Origin: a virus
Taxonomy: Duplodnaviria; Heunggongvirae; Uroviricota; Caudoviricetes
Direction: 5' to 3' (one strand)
Virus record (IMG/VR): IMGVR_UViG_2671181134_000003
DNA: 19,496 bases
In this document: one piece after another, positions 2,780 to 19,496 of the stretch
Numbering within the stretch: the first letter of the stretch is position 1
How the letters are laid out: every line of letters begins with the position of its first letter
Translations under genes and position numbers: made by a program
Notes under the pieces: model-generated
Databases searched by the model: none
The model's input: only the letters and a program-made list of their open reading frames with translations
What the model was told of the DNA's origin: nothing

Positions 2780-3139
2780 AAACCGGCCAAGGATAATCCG
2801 CTGAAGATTTGCCGGTGGCTAAAGGGGCCAAGCCACCAATTTACGTAATTAGCCACAGAGATACAATATTTTAGTTTACTTATGTATTTCTGAAGCATGT
2901 CTTTGCGCAGTATCGTCGCCGTATTCCCACATGAACAGAGACCGCAGCCCTACCGGGAGACTCCTCTGCGCGAGTGTGCGGGGATAATCAAAAACGATAC
3001 ACACCGGGGTTTACCGCGTTAACGGAGCGCGGCGTTGTCCCCTCATAGTCGCCTGTCCGGTGCGATGGTGGAAGAAACCGGACTACATTGAAAATGATAA
3101 CCATTATCATTTTTGCGGGTCCTCCTGGTGGGGTGGGCC

Positions 3140-12982: not shown

Positions 12983-15581
12983 TTTTGCCGATCTGACAGC
13001 TGTTCTTACACTGGATTCAACCCGTTTTTCTGAAGAGGCTGCACGGGTAAAGAAAGAACTGGGTGAAACCAGTGACCTTGCGGATTTGATGGCCGGGCGT
13101 GTCAGCCAGTCTTTTAAGAAACAGGCCGCTGCCGTTGAACAGGGGCTGAGCCGTCAGGCGCTGGCTGCACAAAAAGCCGGGATTTCCGTCGGGCAGTATA
13201 AAGCGGCCATGCGAACCCTGCCCGCACAGTTTACGGATATCGCCACGCAGCTTGCCGGTGGTCAGAATCCCTGGCTCATCCTGCTGCAACAGGGCGGTCA
13301 GGTGAAGGACTCATTCGGCGGGATGCTCCCCATGTTCCGGGGGCTTGCCGGTGCGATCAGCCTGCCGATGGTCGGGGTCACCTCGCTGGCGGTGGCGACC
13401 GGTGCGCTGGCGTACGCCTGGTACCAGGGGGATTCCACGCTTTCAGCGTTTAATAAAACCCTGGTTCTTTCCGGTAATCAGTCAGGACTGACGGCAGAGC
13501 GCATGCTGACGCTCTCCAGAGCCGGGCAGGCGGCAGGGCTGACGTTTAACCAGGCGGGAGAGTCACTGGCAGCCCTGGTCAGTGCCGGTGTGCGTGGTGG
13601 TGAACAGTTTGATGCCATTAACCAGAGTGTGGCGCGTTTTGCGTCTGCCTCCGGTGTGGAGGTGGACAAGGTTGCAGAGGCTTTCGGAAAACTGACCACC
13701 GACCCGACGTCGGGGCTGACTGCGATGGCACGCCAGTTCCGCAACGTGACGGCAGAGCAGATTGCGTATGTTGCTCAGCTGCAGCGTTCCGGAGACGAGG
13801 CCGGTGCCTTACAGGCGGCGAACGATGCTGCCACGAAAGGCTTTGATGAGCAGACCCGTCGCCTGAAAGAGAACATGGGGACGCTGGAAACCTGGGCGGA
13901 TAAAACAGGGAAGGCGTTCAAATCGATGTGGGATGCCATTCTGGATATCGGTCGTCCGGAATCTTCTGCGGACATGCTCGCCAGTGCGCAGAAGGCATTT
14001 GATGAAGCGGATAAGAAATGGCAGTGGTACCAGAGCCGGAGCCAGCGCCGCGGTAAAACCTCCTCTTTCCGGGCCAACCTTCAGGGTGCATGGGATGACC
14101 GGGAAAATGCCCGTCTGGGGCTGGCGGCGGCAACGCTGCAGTCGGATATGGAAAAAGCCGGTGAACTGGCGGCAAGGGACAGGGCTGAGCGTGAGGCGTC
14201 ACAGCTGAAGTATACCGGAGAGGCGCAGAAAGCGTATGAACGCCTGCTGTCGCCGCTGGAGAAATATACCGCCCGTCAGGAAGAACTGAACAGGGCTCTG
14301 AGAGACGGGAAAATCCTGCAGGCGGATTACAACACGCTGATGGCGTCGGCGAAAAAGGATTATGAATCGACGCTGAAAAAGCCGTCCGGTGTGAAGGTGT
14401 CTGCCGGTGAGCGTCAGGAAGACCGGGCGCATGCAGCCCTGCTGGCGCTTGAAACCGAGCTCCGGACGCTGGAGAAGCACAGCGGTGCGAATGAGAAAAT
14501 CAGCCAGCAGCGCCGTGATTTATGGAAGGCGGAAAGTCAGTATGCGGTCCTGAAAGAGGCCGCTACGAAACGACAGTTATCCGGGCAGGAAAAATCCCTG
14601 CTGGCCCATGAGAAAGAGACGCTGGAGTACAAACGCCAGCTGGCTGAGCTGGGTGACAAGGTTGAATACCAGAAACGGCTGAATGAGCTGGCACAGCAGG
14701 CGGTGCGGTTTGAAGAGCAACAGAGCGCGAAGCAGGCCGCCATCAGCGCAAAAGCCCGTGGTCTCACTGACCGTCAGGCGCAGAGGGAGTCTGAAGCGCA
14801 GCGTCTTCGTGACGTGTATGGCGATAATCCGCAGGCGCTGGCCCGGGTCACCGGGGCACTGAAACAGACATGGGCGGATGAAGACATGCTGCGCGGTGAC
14901 TGGCTGGCCGGGCTGAAGTCCGGCTGGGGCGAGTGGGCGGAAAGTGCGACGGACAGTTTTTCGCAGGTGAAAAGTGCTGCCACGCAGACCTTTGATGGTA
15001 TTGCACAGAATATGGCGGCGATGCTGACCGGTGCAGAGGCAGACTGGCTGGGGTTCACCCGTTCGGTGCTGTCCATGATGACAGAAATCCTGCTTAAACA
15101 GGCCATGGTGGGCATTGTCGGGCGTATCGGCAGCGCCATCGGGGGAGCCATTGGTGGTGCTGGCGCATCCGCTTCCACGGGGACAGCCATTCAGGCTGCG
15201 GCAGCGAACTTTCATTTTGCGACCGGCGGATTTACGGGCACGGGCGGCAAATATGAGCCTGCGGGGATAGTTCACCGCGGGGAGTTTGTCTTCACGAAGG
15301 AGGCAACCAGCCGGATAGGTGTGGGGAATCTTTACCGCCTGATGCGCGGCTATGCGGAAGGGGGTTATGTGGGGGGGGCCGGAAGTCCGGCGCAGATGCG
15401 GCGGGCGGAAGGTATTAATTTTAATCAGAACAATCACGTGGTGATTCAGAACGACGGTATCAACGGACAGGCGGGGCCGCAGCTGATGAAGGCGGTGTAT
15501 GACATGGCCCGCAAGGGGGCGCAGGATGAGCTCCGGCTGCAGTTGCGTGATGGCGGTATGTTATCAGGGAGCGGGCGATGA
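12972..15581 (+). CDS. H: tail tape measure protein H (lambda gpH-like)
   Basis: About 870 aa with extensive identity to lambda gpH (QALAAQKAGISVGQYKAAMRTLPAQFTDIATQLAGGQNPWLILLQQGGQVKDSFGGM... and C-terminal FHFATGGFTGTGGKYEPAGIVHRGEFVFTKEATSRIGVGNLYRLMRGYA). Start ATG 12972 with GGAGG at 12959-12963, not the track's 12954. Confidence 0.95.
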   Translation: MAGNFADLTAVLTLDSTRFSEEAARVKKELGETSDLADLMAGRVSQSFKKQAAAVEQGLSRQALAAQKAGISVGQYKAAMRTLPAQFTDIATQLAGGQNPWLILLQQGGQVKDSFGGMLPMFRGLAGAISLPMVGVTSLAVATGALAYAWYQGDSTLSAFNKTLVLSGNQSGLTAERMLTLSRAGQAAGLTFNQAGESLAALVSAGVRGGEQFDAINQSVARFASASGVEVDKVAEAFGKLTTDPTSGLTAMARQFRNVTAEQIAYVAQLQRSGDEAGALQAANDAATKGFDEQTRRLKENMGTLETWADKTGKAFKSMWDAILDIGRPESSADMLASAQKAFDEADKKWQWYQSRSQRRGKTSSFRANLQGAWDDRENARLGLAAATLQSDMEKAGELAARDRAEREASQLKYTGEAQKAYERLLSPLEKYTARQEELNRALRDGKILQADYNTLMASAKKDYESTLKKPSGVKVSAGERQEDRAHAALLALETELRTLEKHSGANEKISQQRRDLWKAESQYAVLKEAATKRQLSGQEKSLLAHEKETLEYKRQLAELGDKVEYQKRLNELAQQAVRFEEQQSAKQAAISAKARGLTDRQAQRESEAQRLRDVYGDNPQALARVTGALKQTWADEDMLRGDWLAGLKSGWGEWAESATDSFSQVKSAATQTFDGIAQNMAAMLTGAEADWLGFTRSVLSMMTEILLKQAMVGIVGRIGSAIGGAIGGAGASASTGTAIQAAAANFHFATGGFTGTGGKYEPAGIVHRGEFVFTKEATSRIGVGNLYRLMRGYAEGGYVGGAGSPAQMRRAEGINFNQNNHVVIQNDGINGQAGPQLMKAVYDMARKGAQDELRLQLRDGGMLSGSGR

Positions 15582-16615: not shown

Positions 16616-17359
16616 ATGACACAGACTGAATCAGCGATTCTGGCGCATGCCCGGCGGTGTGCGCCTGAGGAGTCGTGCGGCTTCGTGATAAGCACGCCGG
16701 AGGGCAACATGTACCAGCCGTGCGTGAATATCTCTGCAGAGCCTGAGGCATATTTTCGTATTGCCCCGGAAGACTGGCTGCGGGCAGAGATGCAGGGGGA
16801 GATTGTGGCACTGGTCCACAGTCATCCCGGTGGTCTGCCCTGGCTGAGCGAGGCTGACCGGCGGCTGCAGATAAAAAGCGCACTGCCCTGGTGGCTGGTC
16901 AGCCGGGGTGACATTCACAAATTCCGCTGTGTGCCGCACCTGACCGGGCGACGTTTTGCGCACGGGGTGACGGACTGTTACACCCTGTTCCGGGATGCTT
17001 ACCATCTGGCGGGGATAACGCTGCCGGATTTTGTGCGTGAGGATGACTGGTGGCGCAACGGTCAGAACCTGTACCTGGACAACCTGGCGGAAAACGGCTT
17101 TTACCGGGTGTCTCCGTCCCGTGCACAGGCAGGCGATATTCTGCTGTGCTGCTTTGGCGCATCGGTGCCGAATCATGCCGCCATTTACTGTGGCAACGGT
17201 GAACTGCTTCACCATATACCTGAACAACTGAGTAAACGGGAGAGGTATTCAGAGAAATGGCAACGACGAACGCATTCTGTCTGGCGTCACCGCCACTGGT
17301 CCGCATCTGCCTTCACGGGGATTTACAACGATTTGGTCGCCGCATCAGCCTGTATGTGA
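16616..17359 (+). CDS. K: tail tip assembly protein K (lambda gpK-like; MPN/JAB plus NlpC/P60-type domains)
   Basis: Starts MTQTESAILAHARRCAPEESCGFV with ...VALVHSHPGG (JAB-like) and a C-terminal GVTDCYTLFRDAYHLAG (NlpC/P60-like), as in lambda gpK. The track ORF 16355..17359 is an in-frame upstream extension inside L and is rejected. Confidence 0.88.
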   Translation: MTQTESAILAHARRCAPEESCGFVISTPEGNMYQPCVNISAEPEAYFRIAPEDWLRAEMQGEIVALVHSHPGGLPWLSEADRRLQIKSALPWWLVSRGDIHKFRCVPHLTGRRFAHGVTDCYTLFRDAYHLAGITLPDFVREDDWWRNGQNLYLDNLAENGFYRVSPSRAQAGDILLCCFGASVPNHAAIYCGNGELLHHIPEQLSKRERYSEKWQRRTHSVWRHRHWSASAFTGIYNDLVAASACM

Positions 17360-17940
17360 ACACGGCAGCGGAGGCCATCCGTGCCCTGTCGCTGCAGGTG
17401 CCGGGATTCCGCTGTCAGATGAACGAAGGCTGGTATCAGATACGTATTGCCGGTGAGGATACCGCGCCGGAGGCGGTGTATGCCCGTCTTCATGAGCCAC
17501 TGAGCGGGAGGGCCGTGATTCATATTGTACCGCGGCTGGCAGGGGCCGGGGGAAATGGTGTTTTTCAGGTTGTGCTGGGGGTTGCAGCGATTGTCGGGTC
17601 ATTTTTCACTGGTGGTGCAACACTGGCGGCATGGGGCGCAGCCCTGAGTGCCGGAGGGCTGACTGCCACCACGATGCTGTTCTCACTGGGGGCCAGCATG
17701 ATTCTGGGTGGTGTGGCCCAGATGCTGGCCCCGAAGGCAAAAACACCGGATTACCGCGCAACGGATAACGGCAGACAGAACACGTACTTTTCCTCGCTGG
17801 ATAACATGATTGCCCAGGGTAACCCGATGCCGGTGCCTTACGGGGAAATGCTGGTTGGCTCCCGCCGTATATCCCAGGACATCAGTACCCGTGATGAAGG
17901 CGGGGGCGGAAAGGTCGTGGTTATCGGGCGGCAGGGGTAA
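17257..17940 (+). CDS. I: tail assembly protein I (lambda gpI-like)
   Basis: MATTNAFCLASPPLVRICLHGDLQRFGRRISLYV...GEMLVGSRRISQDISTRDEGGGGKVVVIGR matches lambda gpI. Start overlaps the 3' end of K by 103 nt in another frame. Stop TAA 17938-17940. Confidence 0.9.
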   Translation: MATTNAFCLASPPLVRICLHGDLQRFGRRISLYVNTAAEAIRALSLQVPGFRCQMNEGWYQIRIAGEDTAPEAVYARLHEPLSGRAVIHIVPRLAGAGGNGVFQVVLGVAAIVGSFFTGGATLAAWGAALSAGGLTATTMLFSLGASMILGGVAQMLAPKAKTPDYRATDNGRQNTYFSSLDNMIAQGNPMPVPYGEMLVGSRRISQDISTRDEGGGGKVVVIGRQG

Positions 17941-17944
17941 AAAG

Positions 17945-17981
17945 AATAAAAAAAATCCCGCAGAGTTGCGGAGCTGCGGGA
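17945..17981 (-). terminator. intrinsic terminator on the - strand
   Basis: 8-bp GC-rich stem TCCCGCAG (17956-17963) / CTGCGGGA (17974-17981) with a 10-nt loop. On the - strand it is followed by eight U (complement of the A-run at 17948-17955). It is not a terminator on the + strand. Confidence 0.65.
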
Positions 17982-18049
17982 GATTCAGACAAATGAAGAT
18001 TAGTGTTAAGGAGTTGTTTTTTTATGTCACGGCAAAAAAACACTAACGC
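17948..18049 (-). ncRNA. candidate small RNA (about 100 nt), antisense to the SD and start of the 31-codon ORF
   Basis: Bounded by the predicted - strand promoter (TSS about 18049) and the - strand intrinsic terminator (3' end about 17948). It covers the SD and start codon (18007-18026) of the + strand small ORF in antisense. No homology to a named sRNA recognised. Confidence 0.35.
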
Positions 18050-18119
18050 AGCGAAATTATACGCGCCACAGTCAGTTTGTGAAAATGTGAAGATATTCAG
18101 AATTTTTATTCAGTCATGA
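18024..18119 (+). CDS. small ORF (31 aa) between tail genes I and J
   Basis: TAAGGAG at 18007-18013, 10 nt upstream of ATG 18024. Stop TGA 18117-18119 lies immediately before the + strand terminator. Peptide MSRQKNTNAAKLYAPQSVCENVKIFRIFIQS is not hydrophobic. Very short, so protein-coding status is uncertain. Confidence 0.25.
   Translation: MSRQKNTNAAKLYAPQSVCENVKIFRIFIQS
18056..18083 (-). promoter_or_regulatory. sigma70-like promoter on the - strand (-35 TTCACA, 16-bp spacer, -10 TATAAT)
   Basis: Complement of 18078-18083 is TTCACA (5/6 match to TTGACA); complement of 18056-18061 is TATAAT (6/6); spacer is 16 nt. Transcription would run leftwards into the - strand terminator. Confidence 0.45.
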
Positions 18120-18120
18120 T

Positions 18121-18152
18121 ACAGGCATCCTCCGGGGTGCCTGTTGTTTTTT
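18121..18152 (+). terminator. intrinsic terminator on the + strand between I and J
   Basis: Stem ACAGGCA (18121-18127) / TGCCTGT (18138-18144), extendable to about 10 bp with a 4-nt loop, followed by TGTTTTTT (18145-18152). Confidence 0.6.
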
Positions 18153-18195
18153 GGGCATAAACAGATTCAGACATCAGACAGGAGAGGGGGACAGA

Positions 18196-19496
18196 GTGGG
18201 TAAAGGGGGCGGCAAGGGGCACACACCGCGTGAGGCGAAGGATAATCTCAAATCCACGCAGATGATGAGTGTGATTGATGCCATTGGTGAGGGACCGGTG
18301 GAAGGTCCGGTGAAGGGACTGCAGAGTATTCTGGTGAACAAAACCCCGCTTACGGACACGGACGGTAATCCCGTGATACACGGTGTGACCGCCGTCTGGC
18401 GTGCCGGGGAGCAGGAGCAGACACCGCCGGAAGGCTTTGAGTCCTCCGGGGCGGAAACCGCACTGGGCGTGGAGGTGACGAAGGCAAAGCCGGTGACGCG
18501 CACCATCACGTCAGCGAACATTGACCGTCTGCGGGTGACCTTCGGGGTGCAGTCACTGGTGGAGACCACCTCAAAGGGTGACCGTAACCCGACGTCTGTC
18601 CGCCTGCTGATTCAGCTTGAGCGTGGTGGTAAATGGATGACGGAAAAGGATGTCACCATTAACGGCAAGACCACCTCGCAGTTCCTGGCGTCGGTGATTC
18701 TGGATAATCTCCCTGAGCGCCCCTTTAACATCCGGATGGTCAGGGAGACGGCGGACAGCACCACGGACCAGCTGCAGAACAGAACGCTGTGGTCGTCATA
18801 CACCGAAATCATCGATGTGAAACAGTGCTACCCGAACACGGCGATTGTGGGGCTGCAGGTGGATGCGGAGCAGTTCGGTGGCCAGCAGCTGACGGTGAAC
18901 TACCATATCCGTGGTCGCATCATCCAGGTGCCGTCAAACTATGACCCGGAAAAACGCACCTACAGCGGTATCTGGGACGGGAGTCTGAAACCGGCATACA
19001 GCAATAACCCGGCCTGGTGTCTGTGGGACATGCTGACTCACCCGCGCTACGGCATGGGAAAACGTCTGGGGGCGGCGGATGTGGACAAGTGGGCGCTGTA
19101 TGCCATCGGGCAGTACTGCGACCAGACGGTCCCGGATGGTTTCGGGGGCACAGAGCCGCGGATGACCTTTAATGCGTACCTGGCACAACAGCGTAAGGCG
19201 TGGGACGTTCTCAGTGATTTCTGCTCGGCGATGCGCTGTATGCCGGTATGGAACGGCCAGACGCTGACGTTCGTTCAGGACCGCCCGTCTGATGTGGTGT
19301 GGCCGTACACCAACAGCGATGTGGTGGTGGATGATAACGGCGTGGGGTTCCGCTACAGCTTCAGTGCCCTGAAGGACCGGCACACGGCGGTGGAGGTGAA
19401 TTACACCGACCCGCAGAACGGCTGGCAGACCTCCACGGAACTGGTGGAAGACCCGGAAGCCATACTGCGCTACGGACGCAACCTGCTGAAGATGGA
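18196..19496 (+). CDS. J: tail tip / host-specificity protein J (lambda gpJ-like), 5' part; continues beyond window end
   Basis: GTG 18196 preceded by GGAGAGGGGG (18181-18190). Translation GKGGGKGHTPREAKDNLKSTQMMSVIDAIGEGPVEGPVKGLQSIL...CYPNTAIVGLQVDAEQFG...IWDGSLKPAYSNNPAWCLWDMLTHPRYGMGKRLGAADVDKWALY matches the lambda gpJ N-terminal region. No stop before the window end (about 433 codons present). Confidence 0.95.
   Translation, partial: MGKGGGKGHTPREAKDNLKSTQMMSVIDAIGEGPVEGPVKGLQSILVNKTPLTDTDGNPVIHGVTAVWRAGEQEQTPPEGFESSGAETALGVEVTKAKPVTRTITSANIDRLRVTFGVQSLVETTSKGDRNPTSVRLLIQLERGGKWMTEKDVTINGKTTSQFLASVILDNLPERPFNIRMVRETADSTTDQLQNRTLWSSYTEIIDVKQCYPNTAIVGLQVDAEQFGGQQLTVNYHIRGRIIQVPSNYDPEKRTYSGIWDGSLKPAYSNNPAWCLWDMLTHPRYGMGKRLGAADVDKWALYAIGQYCDQTVPDGFGGTEPRMTFNAYLAQQRKAWDVLSDFCSAMRCMPVWNGQTLTFVQDRPSDVVWPYTNSDVVVDDNGVGFRYSFSALKDRHTAVEVNYTDPQNGWQTSTELVEDPEAILRYGRNLLKM

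What the first reader, a model, noticed from the sequence alone, without database searches (positions are those of the whole stretch)
17941..18195. Compact module between tail genes I and J: candidate antisense sRNA with its own promoter and terminator, opposite a 31-codon ORF
Lambda has no sizeable gap between I and J; here there are 255 bp of AT-rich non-coding-looking DNA with three strong signals. First, a - strand promoter with a perfect -10 (TATAAT, complement of 18056-18061) and a 5/6 -35 (TTCACA, complement of 18078-18083) at 16-bp spacing. Second, about 100 nt downstream on the same strand, a textbook intrinsic terminator (8-bp GC stem at 17956-17981 followed by U8). Third, on the + strand, a 31-codon ORF (18024-18119) with a TAAGGAG SD, immediately followed by a strong + strand terminator (18121-18152). 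The predicted - strand RNA (about 18049->17948) is antisense to the SD and first 8 codons of the small ORF. This is the architecture of a cis-antisense regulatory pair or type I toxin-antitoxin-like module, or alternatively a free-standing prophage sRNA moron, embedded in the tail operon where it could be expressed from the lysogen. The + strand terminator just upstream of J is also unexpected inside a late operon.
Basis: partly seen in the sequence, partly recalled or inferred. Interest (0 to 1): 0.75.

Follow-up and report, generated by a model that had tools for sequence, protein, structure and literature searches.

The report
Known prophage small RNA gene (PasB/EcOnc22)
The gap between tail genes I and J of this E. 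coli prophage holds a self-contained gene for a small Hfq-binding regulatory RNA that was already detected experimentally in EHEC (EcOnc22/23/24) and EPEC (PasB), while the 31-codon reading frame opposite it is not a real gene.

Summary

The minus-strand RNA (about 18049 to 17948) is real and already published. Homologues in the same I-J spacer, antisense to the tail genes, are:
- EcOnc22/23/24 in E. coli O157 Sakai: Hfq-CRAC peaks, an ~85-nt northern band, destabilised without Hfq.
- PasB in EPEC E2348/69: 83 nt, Hfq-dependent, 37 RIL-seq partners.

The window copy is 74/83 identical to PasB. A covariance model built without window-type sequences scores it at 74.7 bits. Targets and function are unpublished, and Rfam has no family for it.

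The 31-codon ORF is a frameshift fragment. The frame is broken or lacks a start codon in many relatives, and where intact it shows no coding constraint. The type I toxin-antitoxin reading is therefore not supported.

A hairpin with a U-rich tail upstream of J also occurs in lambda's own 60-bp I-J gap.

Observations I did not find in the papers read:
- The unit occurs as 1-4 tandem copies.
- Each unit carries an invariant CRP-like box at a fixed distance from its -10 element.
- sodC occupies the same site in other prophages.

The parts
17948..18049 (-). sRNA gene, a PasB / EcOnc22-family member. The predicted primary transcript is about 101 nt. The abundant species in homologues is 83-85 nt, with a 5' end after the U-run.
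   Evidence: Model R1, built without window-type sequences, hits 17949-18048 (-) at 74.7 bits, E=8e-16, full length. 74/83 identical to PasB. 77/102 identical to EcOnc22.
18056..18083 (-). Sigma-70 promoter of the sRNA: -35 TTCACA (18083-18078), 16-nt spacer, -10 TATAAT (18061-18056).
   Evidence: A -10-like hexamer lies at the same position in 44 units. The -35 is good only in the window/PasB type; the Sakai type has TTCCGG.
18083..18104 (.). CRP-like palindromic box, AAATGTGAAGATATTCAGAATT, upstream of the sRNA promoter.
   Evidence: 14 of 16 consensus positions; the only such match in the window against 0.06 expected. Half-sites are invariant and the 6-bp spacer varies across units. There are always 24 nt between TCACA and the -10 hexamer, so the centre lies at about -44.5.
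17948..17981 (-). Intrinsic terminator of the sRNA (UCCCGCAG ... CUGCGGGA, then U8), also the presumed Hfq proximal-face site.
   Evidence: The stem is nearly invariant in 32 aligned units and is the only consensus structure found.
17993..18015 (-). Conserved, unstructured body of the sRNA: AACUCC (complement of 18010-15), then a variable 7 nt, then UAAUCUUCAU (complement of 17993-18002). Candidate base-pairing region. The A-rich ARN-like run lies just 5' of it.
   Evidence: Invariant or near-invariant columns in alignment A1. No consensus pairing there. The CLASH chimeras of EcOnc22/23 use this region.
18024..18119 (+). The 31-codon ORF, judged non-coding. It is a frameshift fragment of a 39-41-codon frame that starts at ATG 17993 in some relatives.
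18121..18152 (+). Plus-strand intrinsic terminator just upstream of the J ribosome-binding site. It is the right-hand boundary of the inserted module, not part of the repeated unit.
   Evidence: Conserved in single-unit and array spacers but present only once per spacer. An analogous hairpin exists in lambda.
17257..17940 (+). Tail assembly gene I (context). RefSeq starts the homologue at the position equivalent to 17359.
18196..19496 (+). 5' part of host-specificity / tail-tip gene J (context); GTG start.

Best explanation
The 255-bp I-J spacer is a moron insertion carrying one copy of a prophage sRNA gene of the PasB / EcOnc22-24 family.

The gene is transcribed antisense to the late tail operon from its own sigma-70 promoter, with a start near G18049. 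It ends at the intrinsic terminator that abuts the I stop codon, with a 3' end near 17948. It can therefore be made in the lysogen, when the late operon is silent.

The RNA has three parts:
- a U-rich 5' end;
- an A-rich (ARN-like) stretch followed by an unstructured, conserved region, AACUCC-N7-UAAUCUUCAU;
- a terminator hairpin with a U8 tail.
This is the layout of an Hfq-dependent base-pairing sRNA.

Most likely it binds Hfq and acts in trans on host and prophage RNAs through the unstructured region. The CUCCUUA core of that region resembles the anti-Shine-Dalgarno end of 16S rRNA, so blocking ribosome-binding sites is the simplest mode of action.

An invariant CRP-like box upstream suggests regulated expression, possibly tied to carbon source or stationary phase.

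Shown here: homology, locus, architecture and their conservation.
Shown in the literature, for homologues only: expression, size, Hfq binding and Hfq dependence, and chimeras with other RNAs.
Inferred: action in trans, the base-pairing region, the role of the CRP-like box, and any phenotype.
For: - Locus identity. The EcOnc22/23/24 Hfq-CRAC peaks (plus strand, ~85-nt northern band, destabilised without hfq; Tree 2014 Table S2) fall in the I-J spacers of Sakai prophages Sp15, Sp14 and Sp11, where the tail genes are on the minus strand.
- Northern probe. The EcOnc22/23/24 probe, GGGAGAGAACGATGAAGATTAAC..., is the complement of that spacer strand.
- CLASH reads. Reads labelled EcOnc22/23/24 read GCCTGAAAAATAACTCCATAACGTTAATCTTCA..., which is exactly that spacer sequence. 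The coordinate offset between NC_002695.1 and .2 is +135 to +137.
- PasB. It is 83 nt, northern-verified, with a delta-hfq log2 fold change of -6.8, and 37 RIL-seq partners. It maps to the 240-bp I-J spacer of EPEC prophage PP6, antisense to the tail genes.
- The window copy. It is 74/83 identical to PasB, 77/102 identical to EcOnc22, and scores 74.7 bits (E=8e-16) against a model built without window-type sequences.
- Family-wide position. The model gives 93 hits in 83 of 85 related loci, all on the minus strand directly after the I stop or further along arrays.
- Structure. Only the terminator stem is conserved; the body is unpaired.
- Promoter and terminator are confirmed.
- CRP-like box: with fixed spacing in 44 units. 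PasB is higher in overnight static LB than in exponential DMEM, while Spot 42, which CRP represses, shows the opposite pattern. This fits cAMP-CRP control but does not prove it.
Against: - No expression data exist for this particular copy.
- Published targets for the family are 'unknown' (2021 review).
- The CLASH partners I could read have only 1-2 reads (yjbJ coding region, ECs4701, ECs5349).
- The CRP-like box is centred about 3 bp further upstream (-44.5) than a canonical class II site (-41.5), so CRP activation is doubtful on geometry.
- The reported 5' ends of PasB and of the CLASH reads lie about 15 nt downstream of the start predicted from the -10 element. The true start, or 5' processing, is unresolved.
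- The RNA is also perfectly complementary to the late I-J mRNA, so a cis role is not excluded.
Confidence: 0.75

Rival explanations
1. A cis-acting antisense element of the tail operon. The minus-strand RNA, or the act of transcribing it, pairs with or collides with late I-J mRNA. It would trigger processing or dampen read-through into J and the downstream cargo genes, helped by the plus-strand terminator.
For: - The RNA is perfectly complementary to about 100 nt of late mRNA (read from the sequence).
- All 93 copies in 83 loci have the antisense orientation and abut the I stop.
- A plus-strand terminator or hairpin before J is kept in three unrelated sequence forms.
Against: - The region it covers encodes nothing conserved.
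- It ends about 145 nt before the J start codon, so it cannot mask the J ribosome-binding site.
- Homologues bind Hfq, need Hfq for stability and form chimeras with unlinked RNAs.
- Arrays of 2-4 diverged units are hard to explain by cis action alone.
- An antisense orientation is also what a lysogen-expressed moron needs to escape late-operon read-through; sodC at this site is antisense too.
Confidence: 0.15
2. An sRNA sponge (anti-sRNA), like AgvB and AsxR from the same prophages. It would titrate a core-genome sRNA rather than repress mRNAs directly.
For: - It is prophage-encoded, short and Hfq-bound, with an A-rich ARN-like stretch of the kind proposed to bind the distal face of Hfq in AgvB.
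- In one CLASH table the feature at the EcOnc22 coordinates carries the label 'asxR2'.
- RIL-seq reports a PasB chimera with an RNA from the PasA locus.
Against: - There is no sequence similarity to the conserved 42-nt 3' module of AgvB, AsxR or EcOnc03 (sequences).
- The locus is different: I-J rather than downstream of PR'.
- No core sRNA partner was seen in the data I could read.
Confidence: 0.15
3. A type I toxin-antitoxin or cis-antisense pair. The plus-strand small ORF (31 codons here, 39-41 in relatives) would encode a peptide whose translation is held down by the antisense sRNA.
For: - The architecture resembles one. The sRNA overlaps the TAAGGAG and the first 8-9 codons.
- In Sakai-type spacers a 39-codon frame starts at the invariant ATGAAGATTA, with its GGGAG buried in the terminator hairpin.
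- A few phage records annotate a hypothetical protein there.
Against: - The frame is broken in the window (17 + 31 codons) and in the L061 type (8 distinct sequences), L033/34, L043 and L021/22. The start codon is missing (ACG) in other units.
- Variable sites fall 8/11/5 across codon positions 1/2/3. Synonymous to nonsynonymous changes are 4:20, against a 20% synonymous share expected at random.
- The peptide has no hydrophobic stretch and no Pfam family.
Confidence: 0.03

Closest known systems
PasB (pathogenicity-associated small RNA B) of EPEC E2348/69 prophage PP6; Pearl Mizrahi et al. 2021, PMC8550237
   Same: - Same locus (I-J spacer), same antisense orientation and same terminator next to the I stop.
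- Same TTCACA-16-TATAAT promoter and same upstream box.
- 74/83 identical over the mapped RNA.
   Different: The window copy has a 3-nt difference in the stretch between CUCC and UAAUCUUCAU (UUAACACUAAUC against UUCACAUUGAUC). It also has an extra GAAUCU before the terminator and a different terminator loop, so its target range may differ. There are no expression data for this copy.
EcOnc22 / EcOnc23 / EcOnc24 of E. coli O157:H7 Sakai prophages Sp15, Sp14 and Sp11; Tree et al. 2014, PMC4104026
   Same: Same locus, orientation, unit architecture and conserved motifs (CGUUAC 5' end, U-run, A-run, AACUCC, UAAUCUUCAU, terminator). 77/102 identical.
   Different: - The Sakai type has a weaker promoter (AATAAT with a TTCCGG -35).
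- It has a shorter 5' part and a different variable stretch (CCAUAACGUUAAUC).
- Its spacer keeps an intact 39-codon frame that is broken in the window.
AgvB / AsxR anti-sRNAs of EHEC prophages
   Same: Short Hfq-binding sRNAs encoded by lambdoid prophages at a moron site, built as a conserved scaffold plus a variable pairing region.
   Different: Unrelated sequence. They lie downstream of PR' rather than between I and J, and are 51-60 nt. Sponge activity was shown for them and not for this family.
CyaR (RyeE), a CRP-activated Hfq sRNA with an anti-SD-like seed
   Same: A CUCCUUA-type motif, an A-rich 5' part (GCUGAAAAACAUAACCCAUAA in CyaR against GCCUGAAAAAUAACUCCAUAA in EcOnc22), and a CRP-type box upstream of the promoter.
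   Different: - No Rfam CyaR match, even at E<=10.
- In CyaR the CCUCCUUA lies in a hairpin loop.
- The cyaR CRP site is centred at -41.5 (21 nt between TCACA and the -10 hexamer), whereas here the spacing is 24 nt.
- The resemblance may come only from shared function or base composition.
sodC (Cu,Zn superoxide dismutase) moron at the same I-J site in other lambdoid prophages
   Same: Same insertion point, also antisense to the tail operon, and next to an sRNA-like segment abutting I.
   Different: It is a protein-coding cargo gene. In those spacers the sRNA segment has lost its promoter and upstream box.

Membership tests
PasB / EcOnc22-24 prophage sRNA family | Encoded in the spacer between tail genes I and J, antisense to them, with the 3' end abutting the I stop codon. 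| tested here: met
   Window. Sakai Sp15, Sp14 and Sp11. EPEC PP6.
PasB / EcOnc22-24 prophage sRNA family | Sequence and structure homology to the published RNAs. | tested here: met
   74/83 identical to PasB. 77/102 identical to EcOnc22. A model built without window-type sequences gives 74.7 bits, E=8e-16, full length.
PasB / EcOnc22-24 prophage sRNA family | Own promoter and Rho-independent terminator with a U-tail. | tested here: met
   Conserved geometry in 44 units.
PasB / EcOnc22-24 prophage sRNA family | Expressed as an ~83-85-nt RNA that binds Hfq and is destabilised without it. | not testable with these tools
   Shown only for homologues: Tree 2014 Table S2 and Pearl Mizrahi 2021 Tables S2 and S6.
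Type I toxin-antitoxin system | A conserved small ORF, usually hydrophobic, under coding constraint. | tested here: not met
   Frameshifts and lost start codons in many relatives. Variable sites by codon position 8/11/5; synonymous to nonsynonymous 4:20 against 20% expected. No hydrophobic segment and no Pfam match.
Type I toxin-antitoxin system | An antisense RNA overlapping the toxin mRNA's translation start. | tested here: met
   The overlap of 18024-18049 follows from the coordinates. This holds for any ORF on the opposite strand, so it carries little weight.
Type I toxin-antitoxin system | The peptide is toxic when expressed and is neutralised by the RNA. | not testable with these tools
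   Needs an experiment.
AgvB / AsxR anti-sRNA family | A conserved ~42-nt 3' module (GUAUCUCAUGCNAUUGCCCGAACCCAYUCGGGC) and a location downstream of PR'. | tested here: not met
   Compared by eye with the sequences. No shared module was seen, and the locus is different.
Any Rfam 15 family, including CyaR RF00112 | A match at the family's gathering score. | tested here: not met
   No match at gathering threshold in the whole window. Only chance-level matches (E>=0.49) in 17850-18300, and none to CyaR.
Class II CRP-dependent promoter | A TGTGA-N6-TCACA site. | tested here: met
   AAATGTGAAGATATTCAGAATT, 2 mismatches in 16 positions; the only match in the window against 0.06 expected. Half-sites are invariant across units.
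Class II CRP-dependent promoter | Site centred at -41.5 relative to the transcription start. | tested here: not met
   There are 24 nt between TCACA and the -10 hexamer in all units, which puts the centre at about -44.5. cyaR has 21 nt. The transcription start is inferred, not mapped.
Class II CRP-dependent promoter | Transcription depends on cAMP-CRP. | not testable with these tools
   Circumstantial only: PasB is higher in static overnight LB than in exponential DMEM.

The most novel reading that the evidence does not exclude
The I-J junction of lambdoid prophages may be an expandable cassette site for a modular sRNA family.

Each ~230-bp unit carries the same regulator box, promoter geometry, 5' leader, CUCC...UAAUCUUCAU core and terminator. 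Units differ in short stretches around the core. Prophages hold one to four units in tandem.

If every unit is expressed, a single prophage would deliver a co-regulated set of diversified Hfq sRNAs. These could retune host translation through anti-SD-like pairing, or interfere with the late mRNAs of related phages.

None of the papers I could read describes the arrays, the shared box, or the equivalence of PasB and EcOnc22-24.
Probability: 0.35. Interest if true: 0.55.

Novelty: already known. Interest (0 to 1): 0.3.

Why it matters
The sRNA is not a discovery. It was found by Hfq-CRAC in EHEC in 2014 and by RIL-seq in EPEC in 2021.

The check still has practical value:
- It links two published names (EcOnc22-24 and PasB) to one family at one fixed phage locus.
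- It shows the family is widespread: about a third of complete E. coli genomes, often in several copies.
- It shows the family is absent from Rfam and from genome annotation.
- It removes a tempting but wrong toxin-antitoxin reading.

The tandem arrays and the invariant upstream box give concrete handles for working out what this still uncharacterised family does in pathogenic E. coli.

Tried and rejected
- Rfam, at gathering threshold and at E<=10: nothing meaningful.
- AgvB, my first guess because of CA-rich stretches: wrong locus and wrong sequence.
- HnrS (EcOnc10-12), a 2026 paper: a different sRNA, lying between Rz and terminase. Only its flank is homologous to window 2904-3082.
[quoted passage not shown] The hha region offers only GAAG. 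The whole-molecule duplex energies from RNAduplex ignore intramolecular structure and were not interpretable.
- Full-text searches for spacer sequence strings, and for 'tail assembly / host specificity / sRNA': no relevant paper.
- A conserved 5' hairpin (GUUAGUGUU pairing with AACACUAAU): specific to the window-type sequence and not kept in the family consensus.
- A plus-strand promoter that would drive the ORF or a plus-strand sRNA ending at the plus-strand terminator: none found by the scan.
- The terminator scan did not flag lambda's I-J hairpin. Its existence rests on the fold alone.
- Genome-wide target prediction was not possible, because no host genome is available in the sandbox.

Full report
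**Observation**

The window is the late region of a lambdoid E. coli prophage. Gene I ends at 17940 and J starts with GTG at 18196, which leaves a 255-bp gap. Lambda's I-J gap is 60 bp.

- a minus-strand promoter, TTCACA-16-TATAAT (18083 to 18056), with 11 of 12 matches;
- a minus-strand terminator ending in a U-run at 17948-17955;
- a plus-strand terminator at 18121-18144 followed by a T-run.

The 31-codon ORF (ATG 18024 to TGA 18119) is also there, preceded by TAAGGAG.

**Identity of the minus-strand RNA**

The spacer is common. It matches 5168 places in 1768 of 5426 complete E. coli genomes and carries no annotation in the records listed. It is also present in long-tailed Stx phages such as VT1-Sakai, BP-4795 and CP-1639. 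Rfam 15 has no family for it.

The literature does cover it, under two names.

EHEC O157:H7 Sakai (Tree et al. 2014, PMC4104026):
- Table S2 lists Hfq-CRAC peaks EcOnc22 (Sp15), EcOnc23 (Sp14) and EcOnc24 (Sp11). They are homologues of one another, lie on the plus strand, give an ~85-nt northern band and are destabilised in delta-hfq.
- In NC_002695.2 the I-J spacers of these three prophages are 2902691-2902930, 2676622-2676861 and 2166672-2166911, with the tail genes on the minus strand.
- The paper used NC_002695.1. The offset to version 2 is +135 to +137 at these loci, which places the peaks inside the spacers.
- The EcOnc22/23/24 northern probe is the complement of the Sakai spacer just 5' of the terminator.
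- RNase E-CLASH reads labelled EcOnc22/23/24 read GCCTGAAAAATAACTCCATAACGTTAATCTTCATCGTTCTCTCCCGCAGC, which is exactly that spacer strand.
- A 2021 review lists EcOnc22/23/24 as confirmed by northern blot and CRAC, with targets unknown.

EPEC E2348/69 (Pearl Mizrahi et al. 2021, PMC8550237):
- PasB is 83 nt, on the minus strand at 1466343 to 1466261 in prophage PP6.
- It is northern-verified and strongly Hfq-dependent (log2 fold change -6.8).
- It is more abundant in overnight static LB than in exponential DMEM.
- It has 37 RIL-seq partners, and its function was left for future work.
- I fetched that region. PasB lies in the 240-bp I-J spacer of PP6, antisense to the tail genes, and its probe sequence sits in the terminator next to I.
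- The PasB row of Table S6 lists no EHEC homologue, unlike the PasA and PasD rows.

The window RNA is 74/83 identical to PasB and 77/102 identical to EcOnc22. A covariance model built from 18 family members, excluding the window-type sequences, finds a single full-length hit in the window. That hit is at 17949-18048 on the minus strand, with 74.7 bits and E=8e-16.

**Anatomy across relatives**

I extracted 82 I-J junctions, 49 of them distinct, from IMG/VR and genome contigs. Spacer lengths fall into classes:
- 60 bp: lambda-like, with no module;
- 235-260 bp: one unit;
- 336-344 bp: one unit plus a different right-hand end with a different terminator;
- 421-489 bp: two units;
- 715 bp: three units;
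- 915-920 bp: four units;
- 851 bp: an antisense sodC gene plus an sRNA segment.

The four-unit array is present at 80% coverage or more in 67 complete genomes, so it is not an assembly artefact.

Read on the minus strand, each unit has the following parts:
- AAAAWTTCTGAA-NNN-TTCACATTT;
- 24 nt;
- a TATAAT-like hexamer;
- 7 nt;
- CGTTAC and a U-run;
- a short GC stretch;
- an A-rich run;
- AACUCC, then about 7 variable nt, then UAAUCUUCAU;
- a short variable stretch;
- the terminator UCCCGCAG...CUGCGGGA and U7-8.

RNAalifold keeps only the terminator stem, so the body is predicted to be single-stranded. The model gives 93 hits in 83 of 85 loci. All are on the minus strand, starting right after the I stop or further along arrays.

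**The ORF**

A 41-codon version exists in two close relatives of the window.

The window has one more T in a T-run. This splits the frame into a 17-codon piece (ATG 17993) and the piece containing the 31-codon ORF. The frame is also broken in the L061 type (8 distinct sequences), L033/34, L043 and L021/22. Several units have ACG in place of ATG.

Among nine distinct intact 39-codon sequences:
- variable sites fall 8, 11 and 5 on codon positions 1, 2 and 3;
- distinct substitutions are 4 synonymous and 20 nonsynonymous, where 20% synonymous is expected at random.

The peptides have no Pfam match and no hydrophobic segment. Nucleotide conservation in the 3' part of the frame coincides with the upstream box of the sRNA promoter. 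The conserved GGAG is the complement of the sRNA's CUCC, and in Sakai no start codon follows it.

I conclude the ORF is not a gene, and that the type I toxin-antitoxin reading fails on its defining feature.

**The plus-strand terminator**

It occurs once per spacer, at the J-proximal end, and is not part of the repeated unit. The 336-344-bp spacers carry an unrelated strong hairpin with a T-run at the equivalent place.

Lambda's own 60-bp gap folds into a GC hairpin followed by UUUUGUCAUUU. The simple terminator scan did not flag it.

Q-modified polymerase reads through terminators in lambdoid late operons; this is established knowledge. Such a signal is therefore ordinary here. It would act only on transcription that has not been antiterminated.

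**The upstream box**

AAATGTGAAGATATTCAGAATT (18083-18104) matches the 22-bp CRP consensus at 14 of 16 specified positions. It is the only such match in the window, against 0.06 expected.

Across units the half-sites are invariant, the 6-bp spacer varies, and the distance to the -10 hexamer is fixed. That pattern is what a dimeric regulator site looks like.

The inferred centre is about -44.5, not -41.5 as in cyaR, so CRP activation is a lead rather than a finding. The expression pattern of PasB (static overnight LB above exponential DMEM) is compatible with it, but growth phase is a confounder.

**Mechanism**

The best-supported reading is a lysogen-expressed, Hfq-dependent, trans-acting sRNA. 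Its unstructured region, AACUCC-N7-UAAUCUUCAU, would pair with targets. The CUCCUUA core resembles the anti-Shine-Dalgarno end of 16S rRNA, so masking of ribosome-binding sites is the simplest mode.

- Shown here: homology, locus and conserved architecture.
- Shown elsewhere, for homologues: expression, size, Hfq binding and chimeras.
- Inferred: the mode of action, the regulator and any phenotype.

A cis role on late I-J mRNA and a sponge role are not excluded, and are listed as rivals.

**Verdict**

The gene family is already known under two names, although its function remains unknown.

Three points are modest additions that I did not find in the papers I could read: the equivalence of PasB and EcOnc22-24, the one-to-four-unit arrays, and the invariant box.

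Noticed in passing
L020 2077-2996 (also L026, L029, L024, L028, L013): In some prophages the I-J spacer holds 2, 3 or 4 tandem sRNA units. Each has its own box, -10 element and terminator, but the body sequence differs. One unit type reads ACCUCCUUAAGGUGA and has a different terminator. The 4-unit array is present in 67 complete E. coli genomes.
   Followed up: partly
L066, L085, L083 and 9 other loci: 851-bp I-J spacers: An antisense sodC gene (periplasmic Cu,Zn superoxide dismutase, PF00080, E=4e-32) occupies the same I-J site. The sRNA body and terminator remain next to I (58-60 bits), but the promoter and upstream box are replaced. The sRNA segment therefore lies downstream of sodC on the same strand.
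   Followed up: partly
window 3090-3108: A Fur-box-like site, GAAAATGATAACCATTATC, lies in the ~560-bp non-coding stretch between the lysis genes and terminase. It has 2 mismatches in 19 positions against 0.00 matches expected by chance. The adjacent 2904-3082 is 93% identical to the flank of HnrS (EcOnc11) in Sakai Sp10, but HnrS itself was not found in the window.
   Followed up: partly
window 18167-18180: The heptamer TCAGACA is repeated in tandem just upstream of the J ribosome-binding site. The copy number differs among relatives, from 2 to 4 copies in the alignment.
   Followed up: no
L097 746-805 (lambda 15445-15504): Lambda's own 60-bp I-J gap folds into a 10-bp GC-rich hairpin followed by UUUUGUCAUUU (-21 kcal/mol, z=-2.8). 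It looks like a terminator, but the simple scan did not flag it.
   Followed up: partly
L007, L008, L010: Contigs filed under Streptomyces flavalbus, Parendozoicomonas haliclonae and a Clostridiales MAG carry E. coli-type lambdoid I-J DNA, with 88-98% protein identity to gene I. These are most likely contamination in those assemblies.
   Followed up: no
Waters et al. 2017 supplement, file 4: One CLASH table labels the feature at the EcOnc22 coordinates (2902729-2902766) as 'asxR2'. This hints that the authors once grouped it with the anti-sRNA AsxR. No explanation was found in the text I read.
   Followed up: no
L091 215-240 (K-12 cyaR) compared with the Sakai EcOnc22 5' part: The CyaR 5' end (GCUGAAAAACAUAACCCAUAA) resembles EcOnc22 (GCCUGAAAAAUAACUCCAUAA). 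Both genes have a CRP-type box upstream and a CUCCUUA-type motif. Rfam's CyaR model does not match, so this may be convergence or base composition.
   Followed up: partly
window 18016-18023, compared with L068 and L057: The window differs from its closest 253-bp relatives by one T in a T-run. That single base decides whether the 41-codon frame is open or split.
   Followed up: yes
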